Origin: Schmidtea polychroa
Lineage: Eukaryota
Reading direction: 5' to 3'
Assembly: GCA_044892525.1 (NCBI GenBank)
Contig: CM097885.1
Coordinates: 31,560,001 to 31,624,000, forward strand
Length of the DNA: 64,000 nt
Shown: positions 9,124-57,500 of the stretch, piece by piece
How positions within the stretch are numbered: the stretch's first letter is position 1
Layout of the letters: the number at the start of each line of letters is the position of its first letter
Position numbers and translations under genes: made by a program
The notes under the pieces: generated by a model
What the model was told of the DNA's origin: nothing
Database searches by the model: none
What the model saw: only the letters and a program-made list of their open reading frames with translations

Positions 9124-12100
9124 TTAGAAATTCTTCTTTCTTGCTTTTAAGTTTGCAAACTCATTGAGTAAATCTGCATAATTTATTTTCGCTGCTTCTT
9201 TGTGTTCAATAGATAGTATTGCAAGATTACGCAACCTGCTTTGGCCAATAGAATTTCTTTTATGTTCCTTTATAATTTTCAATTTGCTAAATGAGCGTTC
9301 GACACCAGCAACTGTAACCGGAAGTGTCAAGAACAACATGAAAGCTGTATATATTTCAGAAAATTCACTTTCTAAACAGTTGTACTTTGTGAGAAACAAT
9401 TTAAAAAAAGTTTTTATAGTCATTTTTTCATTTAATTCTTGCCTTATTAGACAAATTGCATGCAGAAACTGAATGTGAAACTCTGAGGTGATCACTTCTG
9501 GGTATTTCTTTTCGAAGTTTGAGCATAATTTTAAAATGTCTGCTTCAGGCAAATTGACAATGTTTTTAGGCTCAAGAAATCCAATTTTTTTAACAATTGT
9601 TTGCATCCCTATAAAACGCTGCTTAATCTGAGCATTTATTTTGTCCAACACGAAATAAAATACTTCAACTTTGAATAATTGTTCCTTGCTGTCAAAGCGA
9701 TAATCTGAAGCTAACTCATCAAAATGTCGTCGAATGCGTGGCTGTCGTTTTGGTTGAAAATTAGTGTCAATTTTCCACTTTTGGCTTGTTCTACAGCTTC
9801 TAATTTCAGTTGTTCATACGATTTTCTAAAGTCTTGGATATTCTCACTGACACGATTTAACACAAGAGACGCTTCATCTAAGTCAATGTCTTTCTTCTAC
9901 AGAGTTTTGGATGCATAATTAATTTCGCACATGACTTTATATAAAAATATACTCAGAAAAACAAAATCAAATGTCTCCATCTTTTTATGTATTTGAATTG
10001 CCTCATCTCTCTCTTCCTTTTTTTTGGATTTAAGACTGATTCAGTCAAAGCTTTTATTATATCAACAAAACGAACTTTAACAGCTGCTAGGGACTGTATT
10101 CTACCTGACCGAGTTGGATTAAGTTTTTAAGGTCATCTGTGGCTCGCCACTAAATTGAGAAAGAAGATCCCACCTCTTTATACTGTTTCCAAAAAATATA
10201 ACGAAACTGCGTGGCAGTCACTAATATAGTCATTAATTATTAAATTGAGATTGTGACTGCCGCAATACACATACTCTGCATTTGGTTGAATCCGTTTAAT
10301 CCTTGTTTGTACACAATATACACACCACTCATGACACTAGCCCCATCATAGCCCTGTCCATAGCATTTTCCTATTGGAATATTCATTTCCATCAGTATCT
10401 TCATTACCTGATCAGTCATACCTTCTGCGGAATGGTCCTTTAATTCATAAAGTCCTATTGGTATTTGGTTAGTGCTCCGAAGAATGTGAACATGTCGTAT
10501 AATAATACTTAGTTGATAAATTTTTGTGATGTCTTGTGTTGTGTCCAACATTAGAGTATAAAATGGCATCGCATTAATCTTTAATATAAATTCTTTTAGA
10601 AGTTTTTCTCCCAAACATTTTATTAGTTCATTTTGAATTGTTGGACTTACATATCTAATTGATACAGATGGCATATCTATTATCTGCTTCATGACATCAT
10701 CATAATGGGCAAGCAATTGAACCTGTGAAAGAAAATTTCCATTATAATCATCTGAAAATCCTTCTCGATGTCCACGAAATGATAAAAAATCTTTGGCTAG
10801 CATGAGCGTTATACGGATTAAACGTTCCAGAACCATCTTCCAAAAAGAGGCTTCATATCGTATTTGACCTTCAGCATTTTTATCGATGGTTTCTTTCTTT
10901 CTCCACATCTCGTACACTGCACATGCTCCAATGTGTTGTTGAGAACCACTATGCGCATTTATGCGTGATGATAAATTTTGCCAATCTCTTATACCAGAAC
11001 ACCATTGGCCTTTGATATTCGAAAAAAGCCAACAAGGTTCACAATATGCTGCGTCTAAAACAGTGGAATAACAGACCCACAAACGTGATTCTGGACCATA
11101 TTTTGCCCAAGAGCAATAATTCGTTTCACTAAAACACCTATTTTCTTGTTCAGGATCTTTAGGAAACGGCCCTTTTGGTCTATGAGGTGAAAGATTTATT
11201 AATATTCTCTTTGTTTCATCAGAAATATTTTGATTTAGATATTTACCAAGATCAGTTGAACATTTAATTTGTCCGTGTCAGTTTGAATAATATCGTGATC
11301 ATCAGTTGGCACTTCTTTTAATACATTATGTTGAGGTCGCACTTTTTAAAACCCCAACTTACTGGTTCTTATATAATTATTTGAATAAAAACAAATCTGT
11401 TCAACAAAATTTATTAATAAATAAAATTAACCTTTTAATTACAAACTTTATCTTTTAAGTCTTCCAGAAATTCACTATTTTCAACGATGCGTGTTATATA
11501 CTGTTATTATGTATATCGTGCATGTTGTTTTAGAATTGCAGACTTAATATGTTAGACTTTCTGTACTGTCTTATTTTGAAATCTCGTAGAGATTGCCTCT
11601 TCAAGATTCAGGAATAACCTAAGAAATTTTGGGCGAATTTACTGAATTTTGGTGTGGTATATATATTATTTTTAAGTAACAGTAAAATAAAATATTTTAA
11701 TTTCCGGCATATACGCACGGAATATTATATTCATTTTTTATATATTTATTATATCCTGCTGTTCTTATAACAGATGTTATTATTTATTTTATGTCTTTTA
11801 TTAATATTAATTTTAAAATATATTAATTTCCGGCTTGTACGCACGGAATATATAATTTTCTAATATTGTTAAAATATAATTAAATATATTTTTGTATAAT
11901 ATACATTGTACTTTAAATAATTTGTCTTGACTATAATAATTAATAGTTTTATAATAATAATCAATATTTTATAATATAATAATTTATTAAATCCCCTTTT
12001 TATTATAACGTTAAGTGTGTTGATAAAATTTAATCAATAACATATTCTCAATACAAAATAAATAACCAATGAATAAAAAATAATCAATACATAATAAATT

Positions 12101-23911: not shown

Positions 23912-26900
23912 TTAATCACTCAATTGTACATCATCAATATCAATTTCGTCACTCAATTGTACATCATCAATATCGATTTCGTCACTCAATTGTACATCGT
24001 CAATATCAATTTCATCATTAGGATCATCACCAGAATCGAAATCTGGACTTAAACCATTGAAAAGTGGACCCACTTCCTCATCACCAGAAACAAAATCTGG
24101 ACTTAATCCTCCGAATAGTGCCCCAACTTCTTCAAATATTTGATCATCATTTATATCATCTAGTGCTAAATAATGACCAAATGCGAGACTGGAATTTTTC
24201 CCCACCCAAAACCGCTTGTCGTCGTTGTTTGACAACGCGATTTTATTGTTTTTAAATGTGTACAATTGGTGGTTCCGCGTCCCTATCCTACTTTGTGGCA
24301 CAGAAAATACTACGTTGTTATTGTAGCATTCTAAATATGAATCGTGCTTAATTTCTGTACCTATTAACCTGACTCCTTTTGCTTTTAAATGATCTTTAGC
24401 CCCTAATAAACTATAGCACTTGGGTCTTAAGAAAACCCATTCCTTATACCCTAGACCTTTACTTTCATCTTTAAATTTACCTATCACAGAATCAAGGTTT
24501 CTAGAGTATAAGGGATGTGCAGGGTCATAGTTGGAAGTATCTAAAAGATTGTTACGAATCATTGCCGGCAAAAGAGTGTCAAGCTTACAGTGCCTAACCT
24601 CAAGAAAAAAGGAGTCAGTATCGCCGGCAACGATATTTATCTCACATTTAAATTCATTTCTATATTTAGCCAATTCTATATACAGTAACTGGTACATCCT
24701 CAGTTTAGACAGGTCTAGCACCGTTTGGCCAATGTAACTAGGCCTGTCTAAACATATAGAATCCTTATTGAGATGTGCAGCAATCAAGTCATCATCAATT
24801 TTGATAGATTTCTTGAAAGTCGGCTTTGAAGCATATACAATCATCTTTTCAGCTGAATTGCATAGCCTCAAATTCATCCGTTTTTTAAGGTTTTCTACGG
24901 ATTTCCCATACAGACTATTATTAAATAATTTGTATAGATCTCTGTGCAGCTCACATGTAGAATTGGCTCTCAAATTAGTGTTTTTGTCTATGTAAGATTT
25001 AAAAATGGGTGCATGCTTAAATTTGATTGCTCTATGTACATTTTTAATAATAGCCCCCAATTCTATATACAACTTGAGAAGTCGCCAATGAAGAACATGG
25101 TTCTTCTTCGGCCAATGCGTGAGCATCAGCTTCTCAACTTTAGAATTTGGCGGGCACATCTTTTCCGGAGCAAGAGGAAAATCATTCAGAAAGTCATGCA
25201 AACAATCAGGTATATCGATATCTACCTCCATAGTATTACCATATGGAAGGTTATCGATATCAGCATTCACACATTCATTCAAGACAGAATCAAGATCATC
25301 ATACACCCAAACAAAGTCAGCATAAGGCAGATTTTGGCTTAAGGCCCAACCATACAAGTTATTAATATCAATATACAAGAGTTCTGTGTCTTCAGAACTT
25401 GCAACATAATGTTTGTTAACAAATGTTAACCCACCCCGTATCCCTCCTTCATAGAAATTAAACATTTCCATGTCCTGCAAAAGTTCAATGGGTTCCGTTA
25501 ATGTCATAAGCGCAGAGGCCCATGACATACCGGGAATGCCATAGAAATTAAGAGGCTCAAGACCATTGTAAGCAATGGCCTTTTCACGGAATTGTTGAAA
25601 ATAGTCTGCGAGGAGAAACACGTCTAATTTAAGGTAAGTTAACATGTAATCTAACATGTTGTTACAGTTTTGCTGAGTCCAAATTACTTGGGCTAATGCA
25701 TATTCATCATTAGACACTGAATCCCAGATAGGAGGCAATTCAAGAGTCGATTCCAGAACCTCAAGAGATGTGGCAAAGTCATAAGGAAAGATACCTTTGG
25801 ATCGAACAATTGCGCCATCGAAAACAGAAGAAGTTAAAGGCAGATCGGAAAGAGTCTTAACCGCTTTTGCTAAAGAAGAATTAACAAACTGCATGCTGTC
25901 AATAAAACGAACAGACAATTTGTTAATGTACGCGATAAAAGAGATGAATTTCTCGGTAGTGGTCGGAATAATATTTAATTCCCAAGAAGGAAAATTATTC
26001 AAGCCATACTTCAAAATATGATGGAGATCATACCCCCTCAAATTGTGAAAAACCACAGGTAACTGTTTCTGAATTCGTCGAGAAACATTACATTTCCTAC
26101 AGGCAGCACCAAGATACTTACCTGAAAAGTGACAATGATCCCTAACTCTATTTCTAATAAATTTTTTACAAAGGTAGCAGGTTCTGGAATCACGAAAGGC
26201 CCGCTCTTCAGCGAAAGACAAGGTTTGCATGGGCTTTTTCCCATTAATTTCGTAATATGGCAGGACAATTGTCATAGCAATTTCCTCCACCTTACGCAAG
26301 AAAGATAAGATGCAAGCATCCCCAACAAACTCATAATAAAATTTAGAGTTATTATAATTATTTATTAATAATAAACCTGCTGTTATTGGCAAATGCTTTT
26401 GATGGTGTATTATATCCCCTGGTAAAATTGATTCAAAGTCTGCATATATCACGAATGGCGGAGTTATGGTTTTCGCATAATTTTGAAAAATTAAATTTTT
26501 ATCATTGGGTAGCGTGTATAATGTAATACCTATCTGGTTCTTACTGCAAAGTGCAACATGAATATCAAATGCATTTTCATGTCGAAAACCATTGAGACAA
26601 TGGGGGCACCAGTTCACTTTAATTCTAACGACGCATTCACTGCTAGAGTGACAATTCATTAATCTTTGTAAGTTAAAAACTGCGGTGTAATGAAAATTAT
26701 CACCGTCTTCCAATAAAAGTAAGTATAAGGGTTCACCACCTATAACCTTAGATCGGTGAATTATATCTAATTGAGGATGATGTGGAATATAATTATCGTC
26801 AACTATATTTTCAAAAGGCTTAGCAGGGGTCGTTCTATAAGTTAAAACATTTATTGCTAAATTTAAATCCTTATTTTTCATCTCGAATTTAGGAATATCA

Positions 26901-27193
26901 CATAGTTTCATTGGACAGTCGGAAATGGGGTCAAAATTTAACTCGTCAAGATAATTTTCATAGGAACTAACACGGTTCCTATGACTATGTATAATATTAC
27001 GTTTTAAAAGTGCTAAAATACTATATATAAAGCACATATCATCGGTGTTTTTAACATTTACTATTGCATTTTTAGATTTTAAAGATGATGGGGTGGGGAT
27101 ATAACTATGTCCAGCTAGCCTATTCATATGTGTAAATTTTGTTAATATAAAATCTATTTCTTTGATTTTAACAACCCGCCATCCACCACCCAA
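23912..27193 (-). CDS. pPolB: Protein-primed family B DNA polymerase
   Basis: Exo I YADFES; endonuclease-VII-like DHCHFSGKYLGAACRKCN; FHNLRGYD; KGIFPY; YIDINNLYG; KLFNNSLYGK; GDTDS; KAKGV. Confidence 0.95.
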   Translation of the reverse strand: MGGGWRVVKIKEIDFILTKFTHMNRLAGHSYIPTPSSLKSKNAIVNVKNTDDMCFIYSILALLKRNIIHSHRNRVSSYENYLDELNFDPISDCPMKLCDIPKFEMKNKDLNLAINVLTYRTTPAKPFENIVDDNYIPHHPQLDIIHRSKVIGGEPLYLLLLEDGDNFHYTAVFNLQRLMNCHSSSECVVRIKVNWCPHCLNGFRHENAFDIHVALCSKNQIGITLYTLPNDKNLIFQNYAKTITPPFVIYADFESILPGDIIHHQKHLPITAGLLLINNYNNSKFYYEFVGDACILSFLRKVEEIAMTIVLPYYEINGKKPMQTLSFAEERAFRDSRTCYLCKKFIRNRVRDHCHFSGKYLGAACRKCNVSRRIQKQLPVVFHNLRGYDLHHILKYGLNNFPSWELNIIPTTTEKFISFIAYINKLSVRFIDSMQFVNSSLAKAVKTLSDLPLTSSVFDGAIVRSKGIFPYDFATSLEVLESTLELPPIWDSVSNDEYALAQVIWTQQNCNNMLDYMLTYLKLDVFLLADYFQQFREKAIAYNGLEPLNFYGIPGMSWASALMTLTEPIELLQDMEMFNFYEGGIRGGLTFVNKHYVASSEDTELLYIDINNLYGWALSQNLPYADFVWVYDDLDSVLNECVNADIDNLPYGNTMEVDIDIPDCLHDFLNDFPLAPEKMCPPNSKVEKLMLTHWPKKNHVLHWRLLKLYIELGAIIKNVHRAIKFKHAPIFKSYIDKNTNLRANSTCELHRDLYKLFNNSLYGKSVENLKKRMNLRLCNSAEKMIVYASKPTFKKSIKIDDDLIAAHLNKDSICLDRPSYIGQTVLDLSKLRMYQLLYIELAKYRNEFKCEINIVAGDTDSFFLEVRHCKLDTLLPAMIRNNLLDTSNYDPAHPLYSRNLDSVIGKFKDESKGLGYKEWVFLRPKCYSLLGAKDHLKAKGVRLIGTEIKHDSYLECYNNNVVFSVPQSRIGTRNHQLYTFKNNKIALSNNDDKRFWVGKNSSLAFGHYLALDDINDDQIFEEVGALFGGLSPDFVSGDEEVGPLFNGLSPDFDSGDDPNDEIDIDDVQLSDEIDIDDVQLSDEIDIDDVQLSD

Positions 27194-27214
27194 ATATGTG
27201 AATTTTTCTATTTA

Positions 27215-27690
27215 TTATTTAATTTGTGAACTTAGAAAACTATCTGAAAAAGCCTCTGCCCTATTCGAGAAGAAATTATCTTTAATTTCACCATCTTTTT
27301 CAAATTGAATCAATACGGAGAATTGTATTTTCACCGACCCCATTCTGTTTATTTCATGATTTAACTTATTAACGATTTTATCGGTTATGGTTATTTGAAT
27401 GATGTTATCCTTCTCTACATTAAATCTTAGATTCTTTCGAACCCCCTTAAAATCAATTTCGATTTCAGGTTCATCGTCAATATCGACTGAACCGCCTACT
27501 TGAATATAATTAACCACATCATTGTCAGTTATTTGATCTAATTTATTAATTTTAGAGGGAGCATCAGACCCAATACTAACAGCAGGTCTTTTTAAATTAT
27601 TATTTACATTAATAACATTATTAATTATAGGTTTTGTAATATTATTTACAGGTTTTGTATTATTTACATTAGTTTTAATTACATGTTTTG
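27215..27690 (-). pseudogene. N-terminal (terminal-protein region) segment of pPolB, cut off by two in-frame TAA stops
   Basis: Same frame as 23912-27193, separated by TAA TAA at 27212-27217. The ORF-track start (27835) lies inside the retrozyme insert. Confidence 0.7.
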
Positions 27691-27699
27691 TAAAAAAAA

Positions 27700-28136
27700 A
27701 AACTAGTCTACTATTGGGATTTGCACTGGGTATCACAAAGCTTGTACTGTTTATTTTATTCAAGTGAGACATCCGACAAAAATATTTTACACCATTACTT
27801 TGAAAGTCAAAAATGCTAAAGGTAATCGGATGCACTTGTAAACAGTTTCTGTGTATCGACTAATTTTTTAGTCCGCAGAGGTGATTATGATTTTTCATAC
27901 GCCATGTTTACAAGTTTACAGATTTTTTCTGTGACCAAGCTATTTTGCAAGCGATGTGATTTCCAGTGTACCGGGGAAAGTATGCAATAGAGTTGAATCA
28001 ACAATATTGTATACTTACCTGGCGCGAAGAGAAATCTTCGTGTCTCCCGCATAGTACTGATGAGAGCCAAAAGCTCGAAACTAGTCTACTATTGGGATTT
28101 GCACTGGGTATCACAAAGCTTGTACTGTTTATTTTA
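27700..28136 (+). mobile_element. Retrozyme-like non-autonomous retroelement (378-bp monomer plus 59-bp terminal direct repeat)
   Basis: 27700-27758 is repeated at 28078-28136. Contains a hammerhead. A homologue lies at 50389-50833. Followed by a TAA-rich tail. Confidence 0.85.
28045..28097 (+). ncRNA. Minimal type I hammerhead ribozyme
   Basis: Stem I UCCC..AUAGUA / UACUAU.GGGA; CUGAUGA 28057-28063; stem II GAGC-caaaa-GCUC; GAAA; palindromic minimal stem III AC-UA-GU; GUC cleavage triplet 28084-28086. Confidence 0.92.
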
Positions 28137-28206
28137 ATAATAAAATAATAATGATAATAATAATAGTAATAATAATAATAACAACAAAGGATACAAAATA
28201 CATTTA

Positions 28207-28590
28207 TTAAACATCAAATTTTTTATACAACAACCAAGCTAAACAATGTTGACTGCATGTTTGTGTCAAGGGATTTTGAAACATTGTTTTATTATATACA
28301 ATAGGTTTCCCCATTGTTTGTAGTTTTAATACCAACAAAGCTGGGTAATAGAAACCCATTGGATCGAACACGAATATATTACTAGGTTTCATATATATAG
28401 CAATCCAATGTTCTCCACCAAGATGAGACGATTGAGTATTGACGATTATGGCTTGATTATTGCTCAAATATGGGATTTTATCAAGAGGAAAAACTCCTAC
28501 AAATTCATTTCCCAATATCTGTTTTCCAATTCTATTGACCTGAACAGAACTACTTAAATAAATTAAACAGTATTGAAAAACTTGCTCCAT
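28207..28590 (-). CDS. Adenain-like cysteine maturation protease
   Basis: FVGVFPLD, IVNT...GEHWIAI, FDPMG, QNPLTQTCSQHC (His/Asp/Gln-Cys catalytic residues). Confidence 0.9.
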   Translation of the reverse strand: MEQVFQYCLIYLSSSVQVNRIGKQILGNEFVGVFPLDKIPYLSNNQAIIVNTQSSHLGGEHWIAIYMKPSNIFVFDPMGFYYPALLVLKLQTMGKPIVYNKTMFQNPLTQTCSQHCLAWLLYKKFDV

Positions 28591-28617
28591 GACAACTTTT
28601 TATATTTCTGTATACAT

Positions 28618-29841
28618 TTATACTAGCACGGTTCTATTTGCAGTAATTTGAACTTCATTTTCAAATACTCCATATATTATAACATGTACTGGTTCAGTGA
28701 TAGCTTTTGCAAACTTTATATCCAGTCGTAAATTTCCGTTTTGTGGTAATTGACTCTGATTTAAATCAAAATCGGGAGCTAAAACAAATGTGAAAAATGG
28801 ATATTTGCTTTTAAATTCTTCAAGAGTTATTCCGCAATTCAAGTTTTTATCTAAATAACCAAGATTTCTAACAATACTCTGCATATATGTCGCACAGTAA
28901 TTGTCATTCTCGAAATCTTGAGTATATGTTTCTCTATAATCAGTATTTTTCGACAAAGTCAATGAAGTAACACCAAAATTTTTGAAAATTGAGCTGGAAG
29001 CAGTATACGATCCATTATATTGCGTTTCACTTTGAAATGTTACCAAAATAAAATTAGGCATTCTTCTGTCACCAAATATTTGTTCTTTATAGAATGATGA
29101 AGCACCTTTAGCAATAGCAAATTGTACAATTTCCTTTGTTTTTAAAGGATAAATTGCATGTTTTGAATTAAGACCCAATTGATGACCAGCTAATACTGAC
29201 GGGTCTACTCGAACTCTTCTCACCAATAATTTTGCATCAGCTAATTGACATATTGGTGCACCAGTTGCACTAGTAAGAGACAATGCAGAATCGGACCTTT
29301 TCAATCTAATATGTACATTAACTCCCGGTAGTAAATATTTCGGTTGATCCATAAAATCAAGTTGTAATGATGAGCACATAGTGAATACTTTTGAACCTTT
29401 AACCCACTTTTTTCTTTCATCATCTGCTGCTGCATAACCCATAGGTGTAAGACAGGTATTTTTAGTATCTGAATTGTAATTTAAAATAGTTTCTATCAAA
29501 GCCTTGTGAATGAATGTATTATTTCCGCCCTCAATCTTGATATTATTAAATCCCAACACTGCATCTTCAAACAGAGTATGAAACATGAAATTGTTTGGTA
29601 ATACATCCGCATTGGCATCCAAAACCTTTCTATCTTTATCTACAACCTTGATCTGAACAGTCAATAAAGTATCGTTCAAATCTAAATATTCAGTTTGCGA
29701 ACCATTAATATAAAACTCGATATCATTTCTACTATCAGTAATTGAATTCATAGGAAAAACTTCCTCAAAGGCACCAAATTCTATTACAGCCTGGGGCGAT
29801 GGTCTATCAAATATACATAATTCGGATTTACCACAAATCAT
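28618..29841 (-). CDS. Polinton major capsid protein (double jelly-roll)
   Basis: KSELCIF, IEFYINGSQTEYLDLNDTLL, IETILNY, QPKYLLPGVNVHIRLKR, GNLRLDIKF motifs; position between the core-protein gene and the protease. Confidence 0.9.
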   Translation of the reverse strand: MICGKSELCIFDRPSPQAVIEFGAFEEVFPMNSITDSRNDIEFYINGSQTEYLDLNDTLLTVQIKVVDKDRKVLDANADVLPNNFMFHTLFEDAVLGFNNIKIEGGNNTFIHKALIETILNYNSDTKNTCLTPMGYAAADDERKKWVKGSKVFTMCSSLQLDFMDQPKYLLPGVNVHIRLKRSDSALSLTSATGAPICQLADAKLLVRRVRVDPSVLAGHQLGLNSKHAIYPLKTKEIVQFAIAKGASSFYKEQIFGDRRMPNFILVTFQSETQYNGSYTASSSIFKNFGVTSLTLSKNTDYRETYTQDFENDNYCATYMQSIVRNLGYLDKNLNCGITLEEFKSKYPFFTFVLAPDFDLNQSQLPQNGNLRLDIKFAKAITEPVHVIIYGVFENEVQITANRTVLV

Positions 29842-30017
29842 TTTGCAAATATAGTTCCATGCAGGCCCGACGCTAGAGTATTTGGCGCCCTAGGCAAACT
29901 AAAAAAATGGCGCCTCTAGTCTAGAAACAAACCCAATAATTAAAGAAGTAAATGAAAATAAAATAACTATACTTCATTTATTTATTACACAAAAATATAT
30001 ATAAAAACAAAAACCAT

Positions 30018-32639
30018 TTAAAATTTAATTTTTCGTGCTTTTAGTTTAGCGAAATCTTCAAGCAGCAACTTCGTATCTATATCACGCGCCATTTCGTGTT
30101 CAATCGACAATATTGCTAATCCCACAAGCCGTTCTTGTGACATTGTAGATCTTATATATGTTTTGATCTGTTTAAGCTTCGAAAAGCTTCGTTCACCGCT
30201 TGCCACAGAAACTGGTAGGGTTAATAAAATTCGCAAAGCAACAAATATATTTGGAACGCTGTCCACTATATTATTTTTACAAATATAATTAAGTACATCT
30301 TCCGGCAATAAGTTTTTTGGAATATGTCTAGCTATAAATATCAATTCGTTCAATAAATCTGTACCATCAATATCTTTAGAATCATCGTGCCGTAAAAAAT
30401 TTTCCAGTTTAAGACAATCCTCTAATATTTTCTTTGACGAAATATATTGCAAATTATGTATGTTGTATAGAAATCCAAATGTTGAATTTATCGTTGACAT
30501 TTGGGTGAATCTTTGCTCAACAGATTTTAAAGCTCTATCCAAAACTGCGAAGTAAAAGCTGATCTTAAATTTTTCTTTTGGGTTCTGAATGGGCTCATCG
30601 TTGGCTTCATATTCGAACTGTTTTTTTTGTTTTCTGATACGCTGAGTTTGTTTAAAGATTGGGGAAATTTCTGATTCTTCAGCAAGTTCTCGCGCATCTA
30701 CCAATATTCTTTCAAAACCTTCATCATTTCGGGAGTTGAATAGAAATTTTTTGGTATCTTCTAGTAGCTTCATAGCATCTTGAATATTAATTTTCTCAGA
30801 TTGAAGTTGTTTGCTTGTAATATTTATGTTGAAAAGAATATCATACCAGATAATAACAGAAACTACAAACTCGAAATTCGAAATAGCTTTAGCAAGGCCC
30901 TGTGCTTCTATACGTGAAGTATTACCAGAAACTCCTGTTTGAGAAGTATCTTGAAAAATATCAATAAGTGCAGCAATAACTTTACTTAGCTGATAGCGTA
31001 GAGGTTTAAGGGCATCGATTCGGCTCTCCCATCTTGTATCGCTCAATGGCTTCACTGTCAAGTTTGAAGCATGACGTTTTAAAACTTCCCATCGACGTGT
31101 TGAAGCGGCAAAATAGACATATATTCGTTGCACTAACATAAAAAATGATGTAGCATCTAAACAACAGCTTACAGCGTCATTAACAACCAGATTCAAAGAA
31201 TGCGCAGAACAAGGAACAAATAGTGCTCGTGGATTTAGATTCAGAATTCGCCGTTGCACGCCATCTTCTTTGCCTTTCATATTGCTACCATTATCGTATC
31301 CTTGGCCACGCAAGTTCTCAATAGGTAATGACATATCTGCTAACATCTGAACGATTTCATCGGTCATACCAGCACCAGTTGTATCTGTTAGTTTCACAAA
31401 TCCCAAAAAATGTTCTCTTATGCATATGGGATCTAAATCACAATTTTCTGTATTTGTATGGACAAAACGAATAATCAACGTCATTTGTTCAGTATGGCTA
31501 ACGTCTGGTGTGCAATCCAGGATTATTGAAAAATATTTAGCCATGGAAATCGATTTTAAAATTTTTGTTTTAATACTCTTAGATAAAAGTTGTATTAACT
31601 CATTCTGAATATCTTTTCCCAAATAATGAACTTGTGTTTCATTGTTCTTTATTCTGCGAAGATGCTCACCCATAATTGGATCAAAAGAGGCCAAATATTC
31701 TACAAAGCTAAGGAAGTTTCCATTTCCAGGAGAATACAATTTTTCATTGCTTCCGCGAAATGCAATATTTTGCGTAGCAAGCACTTTAACTAGACCTCTC
31801 TCTTCTTGTTTTATGAGACGCAAATTATCCTGGTCAATAGTTTTATTCTTTTTTAAACGCAATTCTAGCTCCTTCCAAGTTTGAAAATTAATTAAATGAT
31901 CCTTATTTTTCTCATGTCTTTCTAAAATTACAGACATATTTTTCCAATCGCTTGATCCTTTATCGGAGAGATGTATTACACGCTGGTTATTATTAAAAAT
32001 TTTGCAACAAAAGCAGAATGCCGAATTAGTTGTTTTGGAATACTGTAGCCAATGACGCCGCATTTCTTCTCCATTTGCAAGTCTCCTTCTATAAAAATTC
32101 ATTGAAAATTTTCTATGGCTCTCATTTTGAGGAAAATCAAATTCTTCAATTTGTTCTGGTCCGTGTTCAACCAAAATTTGCCTCAAACGGCCAGAACGTA
32201 AGTCATGTGAATTTAACCAAGTTGCCGGATCACTATAATCAAGACTCGAATTTACGCTTTCTAATATTTCCAAAGTTTCATTAATTAAAATTTCTTCAGT
32301 GTCTTCTATAGTTTCTAATACAATTTCTTCTATAGGTTCTTCAACAGTTTCTTCAATTGTTTCAACTTCAGTTTCTTCTATAGTTTCTTCCACATTCGTA
32401 TGTGGAAACTCAGTCAAAATAGGCACCTCTGCATTTCTAGTTGTAGAGTTCCTATCCATTTGCTCTTCCAAATTGCAGTCTACTTGTTTTCTCGGAGTCA
32501 TTTCATTTCGATTTTTATCTTGTGATTGTTGACGACAAATATATTTCAGAAAAGCACCTTCTTGCTTTTTTTCTTCATTTTTCTTTTCAGCTTTACGTTT
32601 TCTATTTTGTGCGCCAGATAATTTTTTTCTATCTGCCAT
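30018..32639 (-). CDS. hAT (ZMYM1-like) transposase, open reading frame
   Basis: TTF zinc finger WLQYS...AFCFCC; ILDCTPD; GQGYDN; CSAH; TRWESR; LTLPVSVASGERSFSKL. Confidence 0.93.
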   Translation of the reverse strand: MADRKKLSGAQNRKRKAEKKNEEKKQEGAFLKYICRQQSQDKNRNEMTPRKQVDCNLEEQMDRNSTTRNAEVPILTEFPHTNVEETIEETEVETIEETVEEPIEEIVLETIEDTEEILINETLEILESVNSSLDYSDPATWLNSHDLRSGRLRQILVEHGPEQIEEFDFPQNESHRKFSMNFYRRRLANGEEMRRHWLQYSKTTNSAFCFCCKIFNNNQRVIHLSDKGSSDWKNMSVILERHEKNKDHLINFQTWKELELRLKKNKTIDQDNLRLIKQEERGLVKVLATQNIAFRGSNEKLYSPGNGNFLSFVEYLASFDPIMGEHLRRIKNNETQVHYLGKDIQNELIQLLSKSIKTKILKSISMAKYFSIILDCTPDVSHTEQMTLIIRFVHTNTENCDLDPICIREHFLGFVKLTDTTGAGMTDEIVQMLADMSLPIENLRGQGYDNGSNMKGKEDGVQRRILNLNPRALFVPCSAHSLNLVVNDAVSCCLDATSFFMLVQRIYVYFAASTRRWEVLKRHASNLTVKPLSDTRWESRIDALKPLRYQLSKVIAALIDIFQDTSQTGVSGNTSRIEAQGLAKAISNFEFVVSVIIWYDILFNINITSKQLQSEKINIQDAMKLLEDTKKFLFNSRNDEGFERILVDARELAEESEISPIFKQTQRIRKQKKQFEYEANDEPIQNPKEKFKISFYFAVLDRALKSVEQRFTQMSTINSTFGFLYNIHNLQYISSKKILEDCLKLENFLRHDDSKDIDGTDLLNELIFIARHIPKNLLPEDVLNYICKNNIVDSVPNIFVALRILLTLPVSVASGERSFSKLKQIKTYIRSTMSQERLVGLAILSIEHEMARDIDTKLLLEDFAKLKARKIKF

Positions 32640-33114
32640 TATGCTACCTCAAGTAAAAATTAATAGAATATAATAGATTTAATAATAGGTGTAGAAAAAT
32701 CCAATATAAATTAAATTACTGTGTTGTATATATGTAAAAATTATACTGGAAGTACGACCGAAATTATATATACTTTAAATAAAAAAAATTTGAGCCCTGC
32801 ACTAATTAAATTTTATTTTTTTTTTCACTTTCTGTTTATTTATTTTTTAACTTTTTTAACATTTACTTTAGTCTTTTAAAACTTTACTGCATGTGACTTT
32901 ATTCTTTTAAAATAAAACTAAAAATTATTGCGTAATTTAAAAAAATTTCAGAGCATGCTATATGCTAAATTTTTTTTAAAACCGCTTTTCAGTTAACTTT
33001 TTTGAACTTGCAAAATATTTTTTTAAATCGATTTTCCGTTGTATTTTTTTAAATTTTAAAAGAAATAAGTAATCGGTATCGGACTAAAACAACGATGGAA
33101 TTACATGTTTTACG

Positions 33115-33262
<148 letters not shown>

Positions 33263-33412
33263 AATTCATACATATGTATATATCAATATAAAGATAGAAA
33301 GTTTATAAAATATTTAATTTACTTGATAAAAAAAGCAGAACTATTTGGCGCCCGCTTGTAAATCGGCGCCCTAGGCTGCTGCCGACGTCGCCTATGCCTA
33401 AAACCGGGCCTG

Positions 33413-33759
33413 GTTCCATGTCCTTTCATTCGTTTGTTTATACGCGATATTCTATGTCCTTTACGTTTTGGAGCTGGGGCTGGAGGTGTATCTTTTTGAA
33501 ACATACCAGCAACTCCAGGTAGAACCTTCCCTAACTCAGCTAAAGCATTTGTTTTTAGGGATGGTAATATTTTCTGTTCATTCATAATCACATCTTTAGC
33601 AGTTTTCATGCCAAAACTACCAATACGTTTAAGAATAGGAAGTGCAAATCTCCCTATTGTTTTTAACCAACCTGACCTGTACTGTTTACCAATAAAATAT
33701 GGTAATTCACCACCAGATTGGCTATCACTATACGTACTAATAATATCGGAATTAGCCAT
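33413..33759 (-). CDS. Polinton small basic core-like protein; native C-terminus displaced by the hAT insertion
   Basis: QSGG motif, amphipathic WLKTIGRFALPILKRIG, basic tail. Removing the hAT restores ...MKGHGTIFAK* with TGA overlapping the capsid ATG at 29838-29841. Confidence 0.75.
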
Positions 33760-34768
33760 CTACTTTACGAGAATGTAGTGTCAAATGAGTTTTTGAGTCT
33801 TTTGGAAAGTTTATAAGTTTTCCACTATCGTCACGAATATTTTTTTCTATATTGTTTATACATGAGCTTGAAATTGGTAAATACATAGGATTATCTATAT
33901 TTATATTGACAACTTCATCATGTTCGTATTTTCCAATCCATACCGATTTCAATAGAGGAACACTGGAATCACCAACTATTATAGGCTCAATAATATTAGT
34001 ATATATGAACATTTGTTGATGATGTTCAAGTATTCTCGGTTTACGTATACCTGCCGATTTTTCCCGATATTGCTGCTTCTCTAATCCAAGTGTATTTGTC
34101 AAATTTTTATCAAATGTAACTTCGCAAATGTCATCATTCAAACTGAAGGTAAATAACAATTCTTTCACAATGTCCAAACTTTTAAATATGTGTGAACAAT
34201 TATACTTTAAATATTTAAGTAACACATCAAGTTTATCAATATATAATTCGTCAGCGAAGGTGAATGATTCTTCAACTTCATTATTATACGACACTGAAAT
34301 TTTGATTTCTTCTCTCATTACACTGTTTGCTTCAAATAGATCAAAGCGTAATAAATATTCTGTTTCCATAACTTCATTTTTCAACTTATTGCAACCCATT
34401 CGTCTGGCATCTTCAATATATTCGAATGTTATTGTAAATGGTTTAAAATCACAACTGATATTTAATCCATCCTTGTAAAACATAGAGCAATGCTGATCTA
34501 ATATTTGATTCGGAATATGATATGTTTTATCATAATTACTGATAATAAAGATACCCCTACATGTTTTCATAACATTCCTTTTGAAATCAATCTTACATTG
34601 ACTATAAAATGGGAATGTATTGTACACGAATGTAAAATCTTGCAGTGCAACTTCCCAGTCACCATTTAAAGAAATCGGATTCTGGAGATTGACCATGAAT
34701 TTACTGGCTTGATTATCTGGATGAATAAGCGGGCAACTATTGCTTGGTAAAATAGTATAAAAATTCAC
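33752..34768 (-). CDS. Polinton minor capsid (penton-like) protein
   Basis: FYTILPSNS...PDNQASKF.VNL..PISLNGDWEVAL; MFIYTNIIEPIIVGDSSVPLL; PMYLPI...IRDDSGKLINF. Likely start overlaps the integrase stop (GTGA). Confidence 0.88.
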   Translation of the reverse strand: MNFYTILPSNSCPLIHPDNQASKFMVNLQNPISLNGDWEVALQDFTFVYNTFPFYSQCKIDFKRNVMKTCRGIFIISNYDKTYHIPNQILDQHCSMFYKDGLNISCDFKPFTITFEYIEDARRMGCNKLKNEVMETEYLLRFDLFEANSVMREEIKISVSYNNEVEESFTFADELYIDKLDVLLKYLKYNCSHIFKSLDIVKELLFTFSLNDDICEVTFDKNLTNTLGLEKQQYREKSAGIRKPRILEHHQQMFIYTNIIEPIIVGDSSVPLLKSVWIGKYEHDEVVNINIDNPMYLPISSSCINNIEKNIRDDSGKLINFPKDSKTHLTLHSRKVDG

Positions 34769-35394
34769 TTTACTAGATCCTTTTCTGATATCCATGATGG
34801 GTTTTGATAACCATGCCATTTGACATAGTATTGTTTATCCTTGGCGACCTTTTTAGTTTTCAATATCTTCTGAATTCTAAATACTTTTGGGGGAGGAATA
34901 ACTTGTAATTCTTGTTCATAAAATTTTCCTTGTACAATATTGTTATCATTGTCTTTGATGACATACATTACAGGATTCTGTTTAGTATTTATTTTTGAAA
35001 TTACAAAGACTTCATCACTCGAATTTGTATCGAAAATTTTAATAAATGGTGATGCACTAATTTTACTAATTCTAACATGGTCACCTACTTTATATTTCGG
35101 TTTTGTAATTTTTTCAGGTTTTTTAGAATAGATTGTTTTTGACGTGATATCAATCGGCCTTAATCCATTCAGTCCTTGATGTGATGAGTGATTATAACTG
35201 GTTATTATTTTTGGTAAAACCAATACCCATTTTTTATTACCTTGATGCACAAATAATTTCTTTAATCTATCTCTCAAAGTTCGGTTAAATCTTTCAACAT
35301 GAGCAGCTTTGTATTGAGAATGTACTGAGTAATGGTTTATTTTCAATTTATTGAGGATTTGCTTGACTTTACTGTTGTAGAATTCTTTACCTAA

Positions 35395-35441
<47 letters not shown>

Positions 35442-35829
35442 CTAAATCAGTTTGCAAGTTTTTAGGATGTCCATCTTTAAATAAATGATTAACAGCTTTG
35501 GACATTTCATCTGCAGATTTTGCCTTGACGGGTATTGCTCGGGCAAACCGACTGAATACATCAATACATGTTAAAATATATTTATACCCATTGTTAATTT
35601 TCGAATAGGGTATCATCTCCATCAAATCCATTTGCCATAAATCATTTATTCCATATGTTTTATATGCTCTTGTTGGGAATCGTTTCTGCATTGGTTTGTT
35701 CAAACTGTAGGCAAGCTGGTCTGATAACCACTTCTGAGTTTCCTTTTTCGAATTCGGAACTCTTTTCCTTAATTTTGCCACTCCACCAAAACCGGCTTCG
35801 TCTTCCGGGTTCATCCAAATCTTCTCCAT
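34765..35829 (-). CDS. Retroviral-like (RVE) integrase with C-terminal chromodomain; predicted 51-nt intron at 35391-35441
   Basis: WQMDL, IDVFSRFA, QTDLG/KEF, AHVERFNRTL (DDE); YYVKWHGY...SWI chromodomain. Confidence 0.93.
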
Positions 35830-35890
35830 TACAACAAGAAGATTTAATATTAAATTTAATGTCTGGTAATGAAGGATTAGCACCCATTGT

Positions 35891-36385
35891 TTATGATCGA
35901 CTTCCTATTATTCCACCTAATAATGATATTGCTAAAGGTATCAATGCACCGATAAATCCCCCTTGTTGTTTATATATAATTTTTCTCATTTGTTGACGAT
36001 TTTTATTATTTACTAATGATAGCAAAGGTTTCCTATGTTTACTCAATAATTGCTTTTTAGATTTACTGATTTTAATCTTGCCTTTGACTACTTTAAGTAT
36101 AATATCGAGTAAATCATCGACAACATAATTTGGAAATGATTGCAAAATACTGTTTCTTTTCATACTTGGTGCCTTTAACAATGTATTGAAAAACGGGAAA
36201 CTCCGATGATTTTTAACAACTTTTACTTTCTTAGTGGTTTTACTTTTAGGTTTAGGTTTAGGATTTTTCGAAATAAGATTCATTACAGGAAAATTTTCTG
36301 TAATAAGTTCTTTAGATGGAGTATAACAAGTTATTGGTGGAACTTTTGGTTGTTTTTTACCCGATATCCTTGTTTTTGAAAACAT
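35891..36385 (-). CDS. Conserved Polinton basic protein with QQGGF motif and hydrophobic C-terminal helix
   Basis: KVVKGKIKIS...LSKHRKPL...QQGGFIGALIPLAISLLGGII; located between ATPase and integrase. Confidence 0.7.
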   Translation of the reverse strand: MFSKTRISGKKQPKVPPITCYTPSKELITENFPVMNLISKNPKPKPKSKTTKKVKVVKNHRSFPFFNTLLKAPSMKRNSILQSFPNYVVDDLLDIILKVVKGKIKISKSKKQLLSKHRKPLLSLVNNKNRQQMRKIIYKQQGGFIGALIPLAISLLGGIIGSRS

Positions 36386-36388
36386 GAT

Positions 36389-37036
36389 TTATATGTTTTC
36401 AACTTTGTTTTGAACTTTGTTTATATACCATGGCACCTTTTGGGTTGAAATATCTGTTTCTACGCGTATATCATCAGGACATTGTTGTGTGAAATCGAGA
36501 AATATATACCCATGCGGTATTTTCGTAGCATCTTGAAATGCATTGATAAGAAAATTACGGTTATTAGGGTATGCTTGTCGTCCAAGAAAATCGATGACAG
36601 TTGCATCTCTAGGATTCTTGAAAATAACTAAATATTGTACATTTAAATTACGTGTTCGATGTGCACCACCTTGATGAAATAGATTTTGTGTTATGAAAAT
36701 AACCGTTACACCAACATGTCTGCTGATTTTTGTGAATAAATTATTAAAGTCCTTTTCTTTATTAGCTTCTTGATACAAATCATCGATAATGATGACATCA
36801 TCTTTCTTCAAACGACTTGACCAGTTTTTATCAAAACCCTTTACTATTTTCATGTTTTTCAACTGACAGAAACTTGATTGCGTCAATCCGTGTTCTTCGT
36901 CGGCGCCCCTATGCCAATAAATATTGTTGAATTTTGTTTTGAACAAATTTGATTTTAGTAATTTACAAACAAATAAAGTTTTCCCGCTACCACTTGGACC
37001 AACGATTTGGTATACTGCATCATTTCGTAATTCCAT
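36389..37036 (-). CDS. A32/FtsK-like genome packaging ATPase
   Basis: Walker A GPSGSGKT, Walker B IIIDD, FTKISRH, FITQNLF, FKNPRD. Confidence 0.93.
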   Translation of the reverse strand: MELRNDAVYQIVGPSGSGKTLFVCKLLKSNLFKTKFNNIYWHRGADEEHGLTQSSFCQLKNMKIVKGFDKNWSSRLKKDDVIIIDDLYQEANKEKDFNNLFTKISRHVGVTVIFITQNLFHQGGAHRTRNLNVQYLVIFKNPRDATVIDFLGRQAYPNNRNFLINAFQDATKIPHGYIFLDFTQQCPDDIRVETDISTQKVPWYINKVQNKVENI

Positions 37037-37140
37037 TTTTTAAATTTAAACTATATAATTATTGTTTATATTGATAATTTTAATGAACTCTGTTTTAAAA
37101 TAACTATATATAACAAAGTTTTTAAAATTATTTCATTAAA

Positions 37141-54510: not shown

Positions 54511-57500
54511 TGGAAAATATCTGTAGAGTACCATTTAACCGCTATACTCTACAAGTAAAATTTTACTATTTTTAACGACCATTTAACCGCTATACTCTAC
54601 AGGACTAGGATCTACTAACTCATTCAGGATTTAATTATCGAGCATTTATACAACATTTACTAGGAATTAGTTACTCGAAACGATTTACCGGAACCACAAT
54701 TAGTTAAAACTATTCAGACAGCGATCAGAATTTCAGTAGAACTGACAGCACGCTTGACTTAAGGATCTAGACCTTATTTTCAATACTCTCGAAGAAAGAA
54801 CTGCAGTAAGTGGAATGAATGTATTTTGTTATATATAAAAACGAATAACTAAAATATTTTATTTTTAATAAAATTTATTGATTTGAAAAAAGGTATTCTT
54901 TCTCTATGGTGCTGGCGACGATGTCGTCTGGAGATCGGACATGATGCGGAGACTCGAATAAATTTTCAAGGAAATACTCGAGGACGAACGATAAGAAGCG
55001 AGGACATTGAATCGAGAATTTGAATGAAATAGATCTCACGGGGATGAAAAATTAAATGTACGATGAGTACCACAATGTAGCATCATGTTCGAAATTCAGA
55101 AGGCGTGGTCGCCAGGTAAATAATTATTTTATATAATAGTCATTTTCCAGTAATATTGATTCGTATGATAAACTATACCATTTATTTTCTTTTGATGATT
55201 GTTCGTGAGGTAGAAATGATAGAGATTTGGAGGGATAGAATCGTCCTTCCTGACGGTCCAAGAGTGGTGGCAGCGATGTATGCCGTTCTTGGGTGGGTCA
55301 GGAGGGGTGAGGACATCTAGTGAATGACAGAAAGTGATTGTAGGAACCGATCTTTTCATCGAGTGCGATCCATTATTATCATTGTCGAAAGTATTTCCAG
55401 CAGAACGAGTTATGGCTATGAAATTTAATGTAGAAGACCAATCCATGGAGAAATTTTAGGAAAATGGTGGATTACAAAGTATGGACACTATATCCAATTG
55501 TCTTTTCTCGAATCTCGATTAAATACGAACTCCGGCTTGTACTTGTCAACGAATAGTGTCGAAATATCCAAACGACAGAGATCTGTATTCGCGCGATGTC
55601 ATCGATAGGATTTCATGGAAAATTTGTGAAGTTGTAGTCTTCTAAGGTTTGAATCGCTAGGATGTTGGCGACGAAACCCATCTACGATGTACTTTTAAAC
55701 GGAATTATCAACTCGTGCACTGCTGATAAGCCTTAATTTTCTGGAAATAAAGTAAATAAATCTTGAGGAATTATCAGATTACTTACGGCCGATATGAAGG
55801 AAACTGCTGTCAGTGTTATCAACTAATTGCTGAACGAATTTCAGTTAGATTTTGAGTAACCGAATGAGACGACCAACGAAAATCTAATAGGAGAGATAAG
55901 GGGATAATTTCTGAATTGATTTGTTAGTGGGCGTAGCGACAAATATTGCCTTGAGTCAACAACACGATAACATTTTCTGTCTGCGACGATTACTCATAGA
56001 AGTTCTAGTAGAAAACTTTGAGTGACTACATCTCGAACATGCATGTAGTTAGACACACGATAGCGAAATTTCTCCCGGTAAGATGATAGTAAATCCGAAC
56101 AGTGAATTGTGTGACGTCATCAGAATTGCATAAGAGTAGGGAATATCACCTGAGGTGTAGAACCGTGTGTAGGGGCAGAGTAGTAGATCGCATCATCGCG
56201 AAGTCGTGTGGCATTGACTTTGACAGACTAGCCTAGGTGAATAACTACTCACGAAAATCAAAAATCCAGACTAGCCAACAAGACATACAAACTTACCTAC
56301 ACCAAACACCACTGAGATGCATTTCATATAATATAACAAAAAAATCAATAATCTTACATTATAGAAACATACATACTTACTTTGATTTCACGTTGATGTT
56401 CTCATTTATAGCTCAATGAGATACATCTTATATTATAGAAATCTGAAAAGTGGAAGGAAAATTAAAAGTGCACACAAGCGCAACACATAATAAAAAACAC
56501 ATACAAACTTTTGATTCGTAAAATTGTAACGATGAGATACGTTTCTATAATAATTCTATTTTAGACAATTTTTAGAAAAAAAGATCGTTGAAAATTTTTT
56601 AAATTATATTTTTAATGAAAATATCAAGAGCAGATGAATTTAGTTCAAAATCTTTTTACTCCAGATTTGATTTCCTTTAAGAATCCCTTCATATTGAGCT
56701 CAGAAAAAAAATTACAAAAATTAAAAAAATTATTCTAATCAGCGATTTTTCCCAAAATGTTTTAAAAAAATACATTGATTGATTTACTTATTTAATTAAT
56801 TATAATTAAAAATATATCGGACTCACATTTTTTCGAAATAATTCCAAAATACTTTAATAAAAAACATAAAATTCCTAAAAAAGCCTGAAAATTAATTAAA
56901 AATAATTTATAATTATATTGTTGATTAAAAGTAATATTTAAGAACTTGAATAATGATCTCATATCCATATGGATCAAAATTCAAGTCTTAAAATTTACTT
57001 TAAATTTAATATCTTACCTGAAAACCATTTCTAAAATAAATTTCATGATGTAAAACATACGTAAAACAGATTACTGACAACTTTGCTCAACAACAATTTA
57101 TCATCAACATCAGTATAAAATTCATCAGTAAATTGGTGAGTGAGCAATCACTCCACACGCAAACCACCACTATAGAGAACGTATCTCAGTGGTGTTTGGT
57201 GTAGTAGAAGCAAACCAGAGTACACTAGCACACACAAGTAGGCGTCGCTATGACGACGATTTCGGCGCGCGTTGTGAATCATTATAATTTAATTTATCAT
57301 GCATTTTTATATAATAATACGTTTTTTAAATTTTTTGCGTTGAACGAGAATAGATATCGTCATTTAATGCGAATAACGCCGAAAATAGAATTAGAACTCG
57401 TTGAATAGATTTAATAAAACTAGGTCTAGAAAATAAAAACTATAAACAGATTGCTAAAGAAATTTTATAACAAGTGAATAAAGGAGATAAATACCAGCGA

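What the first reader, a model, noticed from the sequence alone, without database searches (positions are those of the whole stretch)
27700..28136. Hammerhead retrozyme with a U1 snRNA-like 5' head
Seen: ATACTTACCTGGC (28011-28023) is identical to the conserved 5' end of U1 snRNA. It is followed by a GAAA-capped hairpin (GCGCGAAGA-gaaa-TCTTCGTGT), a minimal type I hammerhead (28045-28097) and TTGCAC (~28099), which resembles the U1A-binding loop. All lie in a 378-bp unit with a 59-bp terminal repeat. Known: minimal type I hammerheads with a palindromic stem III occur in Penelope-like elements and metazoan non-LTR retrozymes and cleave as dimers; newt satellite 2 uses an snRNA-type promoter; U1-headed SINEs exist. 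Inference: this element captured a U1 promoter and start site. It would then initiate at 28011, cleave off the U1 leader, and regenerate a promoter-containing monomer from the next repeat. The released leader could also pair with 5' splice sites. I do not know of a described U1-head plus hammerhead element.
Basis: partly seen in the sequence, partly recalled or inferred. Interest (0 to 1): 0.85.

Follow-up and report, generated by a model that had tools for sequence, protein, structure and literature searches.

The report
Hammerhead retrozyme with captured U1 start
A repeated mobile element with over a thousand copies in a flatworm genome carries the first 16 letters of the host's U1 splicing RNA just in front of a predicted self-cutting ribozyme, and likely uses this captured U1 start, together with a weak promoter-like word at the matching distance, to get itself transcribed.

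Summary
The 378-bp unit is a high-copy tandem non-LTR retrozyme: 1,518 exact U1-head 14-mers against 0 reversed, arrays of up to 11 units, a fixed 3' end and (TTA)n targets. It carries a canonical type I hammerhead. The U1 match is 16 nt, not 13, and starts at U1 nucleotide 1. Nothing else aligns to U1.

New support for a captured start: host snRNA genes share a positional motif near -70, and the element has its best match at -68 (p about 0.01-0.08; weaker in this copy). In a second organism, similarity to the family begins at U1 nt 3 behind a different upstream region. No subfamily variant falls in the head-to-hammerhead module.

Against: the head is also the 3' arm of an 18-bp hairpin and is buried in the monomer. 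Genomic copies show no strong stop at nt 1. No RNA data show a start. TTGCAC is paired in the monomer, not a U1A loop. The 59-bp repeat is a truncated upstream unit, so this copy cannot make a monomer.

Verdict: new variant of a known kind. U1 origin about 85%, working snRNA-type start about 50%, trans-acting U1 mimic about 10%.

The parts
27700..27758 (+). 3' remnant of a 5'-truncated upstream unit (pLTR-like repeat); begins inside the hammerhead at GAAA, so it holds no complete ribozyme
27759..28136 (+). One full 378-bp retrozyme unit, youngest subfamily (100% identical to copies in arrays on C1, C2, C3 and C57); fixed 3' end at 28136
27943..27952 (+). Site resembling the host snRNA proximal motif, at -68 from the U1 head (TTTTGCAAGC here; ATTTGCAAGT in 34 of 90 copies)
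   Evidence: inferred promoter element, untested
27971..27989 (+). 5' arm of an 18-bp hairpin that pairs with 28005-28022 and masks the U1-like head; reads like a splice donor in one subfamily (19 of 79 copies)
28011..28026 (+). 16 nt identical to nt 1-16 of the host's major U1 snRNA
28021..28044 (+). GC-rich GAAA-capped hairpin whose 5' strand is U1 nt 11-16; in a second organism the base pairs more perfectly and carries tandem G.A pairs
28045..28097 (+). Canonical metazoan type I hammerhead with palindromic ACUAGU helix III; predicted cleavage after C28086, probably as a dimer
   Evidence: definitions from PMC4209133 passages; activity untested
28099..28104 (+). TTGCAC; predicted to be paired in the monomer; not supported as a U1A-binding loop
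28137..28181 (+). (TAA)n-type target stretch into which the element inserted

Best explanation
The element is a tandem hammerhead retrozyme, likely spread by a Penelope-like reverse transcriptase, whose ancestor likely captured the start of a host U1 gene and likely still uses it as an snRNA-type transcription start. SHOWN: tandem arrays, fixed 3' end, variable 5' truncation, inverted partial copies, (TTA)n/(TAA)n targets, intact hammerhead core, 16-nt identity to host U1 nt 1-16, and a conserved head-to-hammerhead module. INFERRED steps: (1) RNA polymerase II starts at the U1 nt 1 position (28011 equivalent), directed by the site at -68. (2) In multi-unit arrays the hammerheads cut, probably as dimers through the palindromic helix III. 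This releases a 76-nt capped leader and 378-nt monomers that carry the promoter DNA sequence internally. (3) Monomers fold tightly, probably circularise, and bury the U1-like arm in an 18-bp hairpin. (4) A Penelope-like RT/GIY-YIG protein nicks AT-rich repeats, starts internally about 50 nt past the cut site, and copies the circle or an uncut multimer into new tandem arrays, so each new unit brings its own promoter. The window copy is a dead-end insertion with one complete hammerhead.
For: Family anatomy. U1 origin: 16-nt identity from nt 1, 2 of 2000 shuffles. Promoter-like site: ATG[CT]A starts at -78..-64 in 10 of 15 host U1/U4/U5 promoters (background 0.042 each; 3 of the 5 promoters fetched after the motif was noticed). 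A matrix from those promoters scores best at -68 in the element: 7.5 bits for the commonest form, reached by 1.1% of host windows at width 10 and 4.5-8.5% at widths 8 and 12. A matrix from U4+U5 alone gives 0.2%. U1 genes place the motif at -69/-70. Constraint: 38 of 242 upstream columns vary between subfamilies versus 0 of 83 from the head to 28118, anchor excluded (94 hammerhead-anchored copies). Second organism (run X20): similarity covers 28013-28114 only; 13 contigs switch to other sequence just before 28013, and no change is listed at 28013-28022. In the predicted 76-nt leader nt 1-10 lie outside any helix and nt 11-16 open one, as in U1 (U1 architecture recalled). Monomer fold z = -9.1. 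Precedent: newt satellite 2 has an snRNA promoter (cited in PMC2220036). Internal RT start and ATT cleavage by a PLE: PMC11167929.
Against: No transcription start was observed: no listed run is on record as RNA and all laid runs were contigs. The -68 site lacks the A of the host ATG[CT]A core, and it is weakest in the youngest, most recently spreading subfamily (p 0.04-0.39). A position-free Gibbs search on 10 promoters was not significant. No alignable homology to U1 upstream DNA (0 of 9). No strong stop at nt 1: 8 copies genome-wide lack the two preceding letters, and only 3 of them are true starts, about my estimate of background. A cluster of 7 of 94 5' ends at -7..+2 was not repeated (0 of 40). 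Both hairpin arms are conserved in this genome (only 3 distal columns of the 5' arm vary), so structure alone could hold the head. The head alone (0 of 16 variable columns) is not significant. In the second organism nt 2 reads C, not T (consensus agreement 0.66). No PLE partner shares a significant 3' end (p 0.24 and 0.36).
Confidence: 0.5

Rival explanations
1. The head came from U1 (template switch, or insertion into a U1 gene at nt 16) but is now a structural relic. It is kept because it forms one arm of a hairpin and the base of the GAAA hairpin that help the monomer and ribozyme fold, and the RNA comes from read-through or another promoter.
For: Head fully paired in the monomer. Both arms conserved. 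No strong stop at nt 1. The youngest active subfamily has the weakest -68 site. SINEU heads carry U1 sequence without a detectable promoter (PMC4494074 passages).
Against: The second organism keeps ACTTACCTGG while the adjoining upstream letters differ. The best promoter-matrix site lies within 2 nt of the host position.
Confidence: 0.27
2. The stretch is not from U1. It is the reverse complement of a consensus splice donor, either a Penelope-type intron donor on the sense strand (27975) duplicated in inverted form to mask it, or a donor used on the antisense strand (CAG|GTAAGTAT). A donor's complement equals U1 nt 1-11 automatically.
For: The 5' arm reads CAG|GTAAAGTATG in 19 of 79 copies, with an AG at 28053-28054. 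A Penelope intron ends at hammerhead helix I in Drosophila virilis (PMC4209133 passages). Inverted partial copies are common here. What the second organism keeps is exactly the complement of CCAG|GTAAGT.
Against: It leaves U1 nt 13-16 (CGCG) and the -68 site as coincidences. The sense GT is absent from most copies. No spliced junction was found in the loci held (0 hits), although PLE copies often retain introns. No loose end at 28018/28019 is among the RNA-contig rows shown (550 rows not shown).
Confidence: 0.13
3. The selected function is the leader itself: a capped 76-nt RNA with a free AUACUUACCU arm that would pair with host 5' splice sites, tethering the element to nascent transcripts or perturbing splicing, while the circle keeps the arm masked.
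For: Nt 1-10 lie outside any helix in the minimum-energy fold of the leader but are paired in the monomer. Nt 3-12, the splice-site-reading part, are what the second organism keeps. Planarian U1 variants are enriched in stem cells (PMC6312358 passages).
Against: No Sm site, no U1-70K loop and no accessible U1A loop: 0 of 9 U1 types align beyond nt 16, so no snRNP would be expected to form or stabilise it. No RNA evidence.
Confidence: 0.1

Closest known systems
Metazoan non-LTR retrozymes (Cervera and de la Pena 2020, PMC7229834; Li et al. bioRxiv 10.64898/2026.07.22.740005)
   Same: Non-coding tandem units of a few hundred bp, each with a type I hammerhead; monomers, dimers and multimers; strongly self-paired RNA; co-occurrence with PLEs.
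   Different: No snRNA-derived part or promoter is mentioned in what I read (passages and Discussion of PMC7229834, where 'snRNA' occurs only in a reference title; parts 1-3 of 5 of the preprint). The PMC7229834 supplement could not be read. No pLTR homology to a PLE was found here.
Newt satellite 2 (Coats, Zhang and Epstein 1994; seen only as a citation in PMC2220036, paper not held)
   Same: Hammerhead satellite transcribed by Pol II from an snRNA-type promoter inside the repeat.
   Different: I saw no report of U1 coding sequence in it. There the promoter was shown; here it is inferred from a weak motif match.
SINEU of crocodilians (Kojima 2015, PMC4494074, passages)
   Same: Non-autonomous retroelement with a U1-derived 5' part, probably added by template switching.
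   Different: SINEU is not tandem, has a poly(A) tail, no hammerhead (0 occurrences in the text) and no promoter found. Here only 16 nt are from U1, they are internal to the unit, and a promoter-like site travels with them.
Penelope-like elements, e.g. Poseidon of Anolis (PMC11167929, parts 1-2 of 4; PMC4209133, passages)
   Same: Partial tandem and inverted copies, hammerhead near the 3' end, fixed 3' end downstream of the cut site (internal RT start), ATT-type targets.
   Different: No ORF. The two host PLE families examined have other hammerheads and no U1 head.
U1 snRNA (Rfam RF00003)
   Same: Nt 1-16 identical to the host gene; free 5' arm followed by a GC helix in the predicted leader.
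   Different: No stem-loops I-IV, no Sm site, no Rfam match; not a U1 gene or pseudogene.

Membership tests
Non-LTR retrozyme | Non-coding tandem repeats with a type I hammerhead in each unit | tested here: met
   378-bp units, arrays of up to 11 full units, 1,199 exact core matches
Non-LTR retrozyme | Dispersed retrotransposed copies with 5' truncation and a fixed 3' end | tested here: met
   10 of 12 top-scoring loci end at unit position 378, one at 375, one at 46 of the next unit; 5' starts from 49 to 320
Non-LTR retrozyme | Stable self-paired monomer structure | tested here: met
   -131.7 kcal/mol, z -9.1, 0 of 100 shuffles as stable; a prediction only
Non-LTR retrozyme | Self-cleavage and accumulation as circular RNA | not testable with these tools
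   No run on record as RNA; contigs only
Non-LTR retrozyme | Co-occurring PLE as mobiliser | tested here: inconclusive
   A PLE family with an 856-aa RT+GIY-YIG frame also sits in (TAA)n, but 3' similarity is not significant
Canonical metazoan type I hammerhead | Core CUGAnGA/GAAA/UH; helix I 6 bp, helix II 4 bp, short palindromic helix III | tested here: met
   Read from the sequence; HH9 E 2.6e-4, below gathering; definition
U1 snRNA gene or pseudogene | Stem-loops I-IV and Sm site | tested here: not met
   No RF00003 hit; 0 of 9 alignments beyond nt 16 exceed shuffles
U1 snRNA gene or pseudogene | 5' splice-site-reading end | tested here: met
   16-nt identity from nt 1
snRNA-type Pol II promoter | Proximal element at the host's position | tested here: inconclusive
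   Best site at -68 versus -69/-70; p 0.002-0.12 for the commonest form, 0.04-0.39 for this copy, by matrix; one core mismatch
snRNA-type Pol II promoter | Capped start at nt 1, dependent on SNAPc | not testable with these tools
   No raw RNA reads; the DNA proxy (strong stop at nt 1) was negative
SINEU | U1/U2-derived head at the 5' end of a dispersed, poly(A)-tailed SINE | tested here: not met
   The head is internal to a tandem unit, copies extend past it and there is no poly(A) tail

The most novel reading that the evidence does not exclude
A selfish circular-RNA element has captured a U1 promoter and start site, and its ribozyme releases a capped 76-nt mini-U1 with a free splice-site-reading arm. 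The same arm is locked in a hairpin in the replicating circle. Over a thousand such loci could supply a splice-site-binding RNA in a stem-cell-rich animal.
Probability: 0.12. Interest if true: 0.85.

Novelty: new variant of a known kind. Interest (0 to 1): 0.6.

Why it matters
How animal retrozymes are transcribed is largely open; the only promoter I found cited is the snRNA-type one of newt satellite 2. This family offers a concrete route: capture of a U1 gene start, with the hammerhead-to-hammerhead monomer carrying the promoter into each new copy. It gives exact, testable coordinates (start 28011, cut 28086, site at -68) in an animal group where RNAi is routine (recalled). As a by-product it defines a positional promoter motif for planarian snRNA genes. 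If the leader accumulates, a transposon would be making a splice-site-complementary RNA.

Tried and rejected
Paper searches that found no U1-head plus hammerhead element: (0 papers). The library lacks most subscription journals. The supplement of PMC7229834 and file 1 of PMC4209133 could not be read and may list planarian retrozymes. The two readable PMC4209133 files hold one S. mediterranea PLE hammerhead of different sequence and no ACUUACCUG.

Relatives in public collections: 5 metagenome matches, which by eye are chance hits without hammerhead stems; 0 in viral contigs; 1 in a bacterial genome, not inspected. No RNA holder was listed. Contig depth was not used as evidence on expression.

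U2 promoters were not obtained, so the promoter set is U1, U4 and U5 only. The U5 start positions are Rfam model starts and may be offset.

Rejected: an LTR reading of the 59-bp repeat; TTGCAC as a U1A loop; a second U1A-like box TTGTAC at 28120-28125 (C28125 is A in 60 of 91 copies); an apparent resemblance of 28027-28039 to the U1 stem-loop II arm (not above shuffles); shared 3' motifs with two PLE families (p 0.24, 0.36, and 0.054 for one old copy); strong stops at U1 nt 1 and at the hammerhead cut (0 of 14 short copies start at position 329); spliced copies. A second hammerhead family with a different helix II was not found (6 matches genome-wide). A cofold of two hammerheads gave an uninformative full duplex.

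Full report
Observation. Every feature is at the stated place. The genome is a planarian by mir-753 at 56935-56995 (that this family is planarian is recalled). Rfam sees the hammerhead weakly (HH9, 26.5 bits, E 2.6e-4) and no U1. By eye the core is complete, with helix I of 6 bp plus a distal stem, helix II of 4 bp, and a 2-bp helix III in the palindrome ACUAGU. This is the canonical metazoan type I form that is thought to cut as a dimer (PMC4209133, passages).

Family. A search of the own genome returned 108 matches from 40 scored of 2,412 candidates, many 100% identical and in head-to-tail arrays of up to 11 full units. In 12 top-scoring loci the 3' end lies at unit position 378 in 10, at 375 in one and at 46 of the next unit in one. 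The first unit is truncated anywhere from 49 to 320, and all 12 run into TTA/TAA-type repeats (two of the 12 look like one duplicated insertion). In the wider sample 14 of 23 terminal contexts are (TTA)n or (TAA)n. Inverted partial copies are common. The U1 14-mer occurs 1,518 times (reversed control 0); this count includes the real U1 genes, and 70 of 70 sites inspected were this family. The hammerhead core occurs 1,199 times. This is the anatomy of a non-LTR retrozyme (PMC7229834, passages and Discussion; bioRxiv 10.64898/2026.07.22.740005, parts 1-3 of 5). A fixed end 50 nt past the cut site fits the internal RT start and ATT cleavage shown for a PLE (PMC11167929, parts 1-2 of 4). A host PLE family with an 856-aa RT+GIY-YIG frame also sits in (TAA)n and is the obvious candidate mobiliser, but it shares no significant 3' sequence. 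The window copy has one complete hammerhead and cannot yield a monomer by itself.

Origin of the head. Host U1 genes begin ATACTTACCTGGCGCG, so the identity is 16 nt from nt 1; a variant matches 18 of 19. Two of 2,000 shuffles share a 16-mer anywhere in nine U1 types. Nothing aligns beyond nt 16 or upstream (0 of 9 each). A complement of a consensus splice donor would explain nt 1-11 or 1-12 but not CGCG. I put U1 origin at about 85%.

Constraint. Among 94 copies chosen by the hammerhead core alone, 38 of 242 upstream columns carry a common second letter or gap, against 0 of 83 from the head to 28118, anchor excluded. With 147 copies and letters only it is 27 of 243 versus 0 of 79 (Fisher p 6e-4); there 70 loci had been chosen by the head, which biases the head columns. 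The head alone (0 of 16) is not significant. In contigs of a second, coded organism (run X20, guessed to be RNA) a related family matches 28013-28114 at roughly 80-86%. Thirteen contigs leave the alignment just before 28013, some with over 150 nt of other sequence. The listed changes fall in the GAAA hairpin (two improve pairing, two make tandem G.A) and in loop II; none is listed at 28013-28022, but 9 rows were not shown. Its nt 2 reads C (consensus agreement 0.66). That run also holds low-depth pieces identical to this genome's copies, so it may be mixed.

Structure. The head is the 3' arm of an 18-bp hairpin with 27971-27989 and is buried in the 378-nt monomer (z -9.1). In a 76-nt leader from 28011 to the cut, nt 1-10 are outside any helix in the minimum-energy fold (unpaired probability 0.59-0.99) and nt 11-16 open a helix. 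TTGCAC is paired in the monomer and single-stranded, not in a hairpin loop, in the 28011-28136 fold. Both arms are conserved in this genome apart from three distal columns of the 5' arm. In 19 of 79 copies the 5' arm reads CAG|GTAAAGTATG, but no spliced copy was found among held loci.

Promoter. A position-free Gibbs search on 10 promoters was not significant. With position, ATG[CT]A starts at -78..-64 in 10 of 15 U1, U4 and U5 promoters (background 0.042 each). The pattern was chosen after looking at the first 10, and it recurs in 3 of the 5 fetched later. A matrix from these promoters has its best in-window site at -68 in all 10 element copies scored (7.5 bits in seven, 8.7 in one, 5.5 in the window type, 3.6 in one). 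For the commonest form the chance in host windows is 0.011 at width 10, 0.045 and 0.085 at widths 8 and 12, 0.115 with a U1-only matrix and 0.002 with a U4+U5 matrix. For the window type it is 0.05-0.39. The site lacks the A of ATG, and a second ATGCAA word lies at about -30 inside the hairpin arm. This is suggestive, not proof.

Start site. If uncut transcripts starting at nt 1 were copied, genomic copies would pile up there. They do not: 8 copies genome-wide lack the two preceding letters, of which 3 are true starts, 3 double mutants and 2 deletions. A cluster at -7..+2 in 7 of 94 copies was absent from 40 others. This shows that the templates were circles or read-through multimers. It neither proves nor excludes a start at nt 1, because such a leader would be cut off.

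Verdict. A member of the non-LTR retrozymes on all features testable here, with a U1-derived segment that I could not find described (searches; two supplements unread). It works most likely like newt satellite 2 (snRNA-type promoter; seen only as a citation in PMC2220036) and was probably built like SINEU (PMC4494074, passages), but it is not a SINEU or a U1 gene. Odds: working captured start 0.50, structural relic 0.27, splice-donor complement 0.13, selected trans-acting mimic 0.10. New variant of a known kind; interest 0.6.

Noticed in passing
window 23912-37039: The retrozyme sits inside a Maverick/Polinton-like element: DNA polymerase with an endonuclease VII-like part (phrog_1907, E 6e-21), integrase with chromodomain, and an A32-like ATPase. 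The stop-to-stop frame 27215-27859 (-) runs into the insert, so the insert may interrupt a small gene.
   Followed up: partly
window 30018-32648 and 9124-11277: hAT transposase frames (DUF4371 plus dimerisation domain); the 876-aa one lies within the Polinton-like element.
   Followed up: no
window 56935-56995: mir-753 precursor at Rfam's gathering score.
   Followed up: no
L282:1490-1565 (-), G000:C1:174223318: A type III-shaped hammerhead with a full core and three stems, outside this family and with no nearby repeat; it folds as a hammerhead (z -2.6), Rfam RF00008 E 0.098.
   Followed up: partly
L093:5849-6001, L094:5346-5495, L087:9367-9520, L096: Host U1 variants with altered 5' arms (AAACTTACTTGG and AAACTAACCTGG), and tandem arrays with 1,771-bp (two U1 types plus a U5-like hit) and 2,069-bp (U4 plus two U1 types) units. 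The C-to-U variant appears in PMC6312358 passages; I did not see the AAACTAAC type in the passages read.
   Followed up: partly
L133:2216-5000, L132, L134: Young Penelope-like family (856-aa frame) in (TAA)n, with a short tail into the ORF start and a hammerhead-like motif whose core reads TTGACAAG instead of CTGATGAG.
   Followed up: partly
upstream of 15 host U1/U4/U5 genes (L087, L089, L091, L093, L094, L096, L288, L293, L045): Positional motif ATG[CT]A (octamer-like ATGCAAAT in two genes) at about -68 to -76, a candidate planarian proximal sequence element, and an AT-rich AAAT[CT]AA-like word just past the 3' ends seen by eye.
   Followed up: partly
L062-L068 (G000:C1 6.37-7.22 Mb): Seven near-identical copies with the same 11-nt deletion and shared flanks, carried inside a larger repeated segment.
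   Followed up: no
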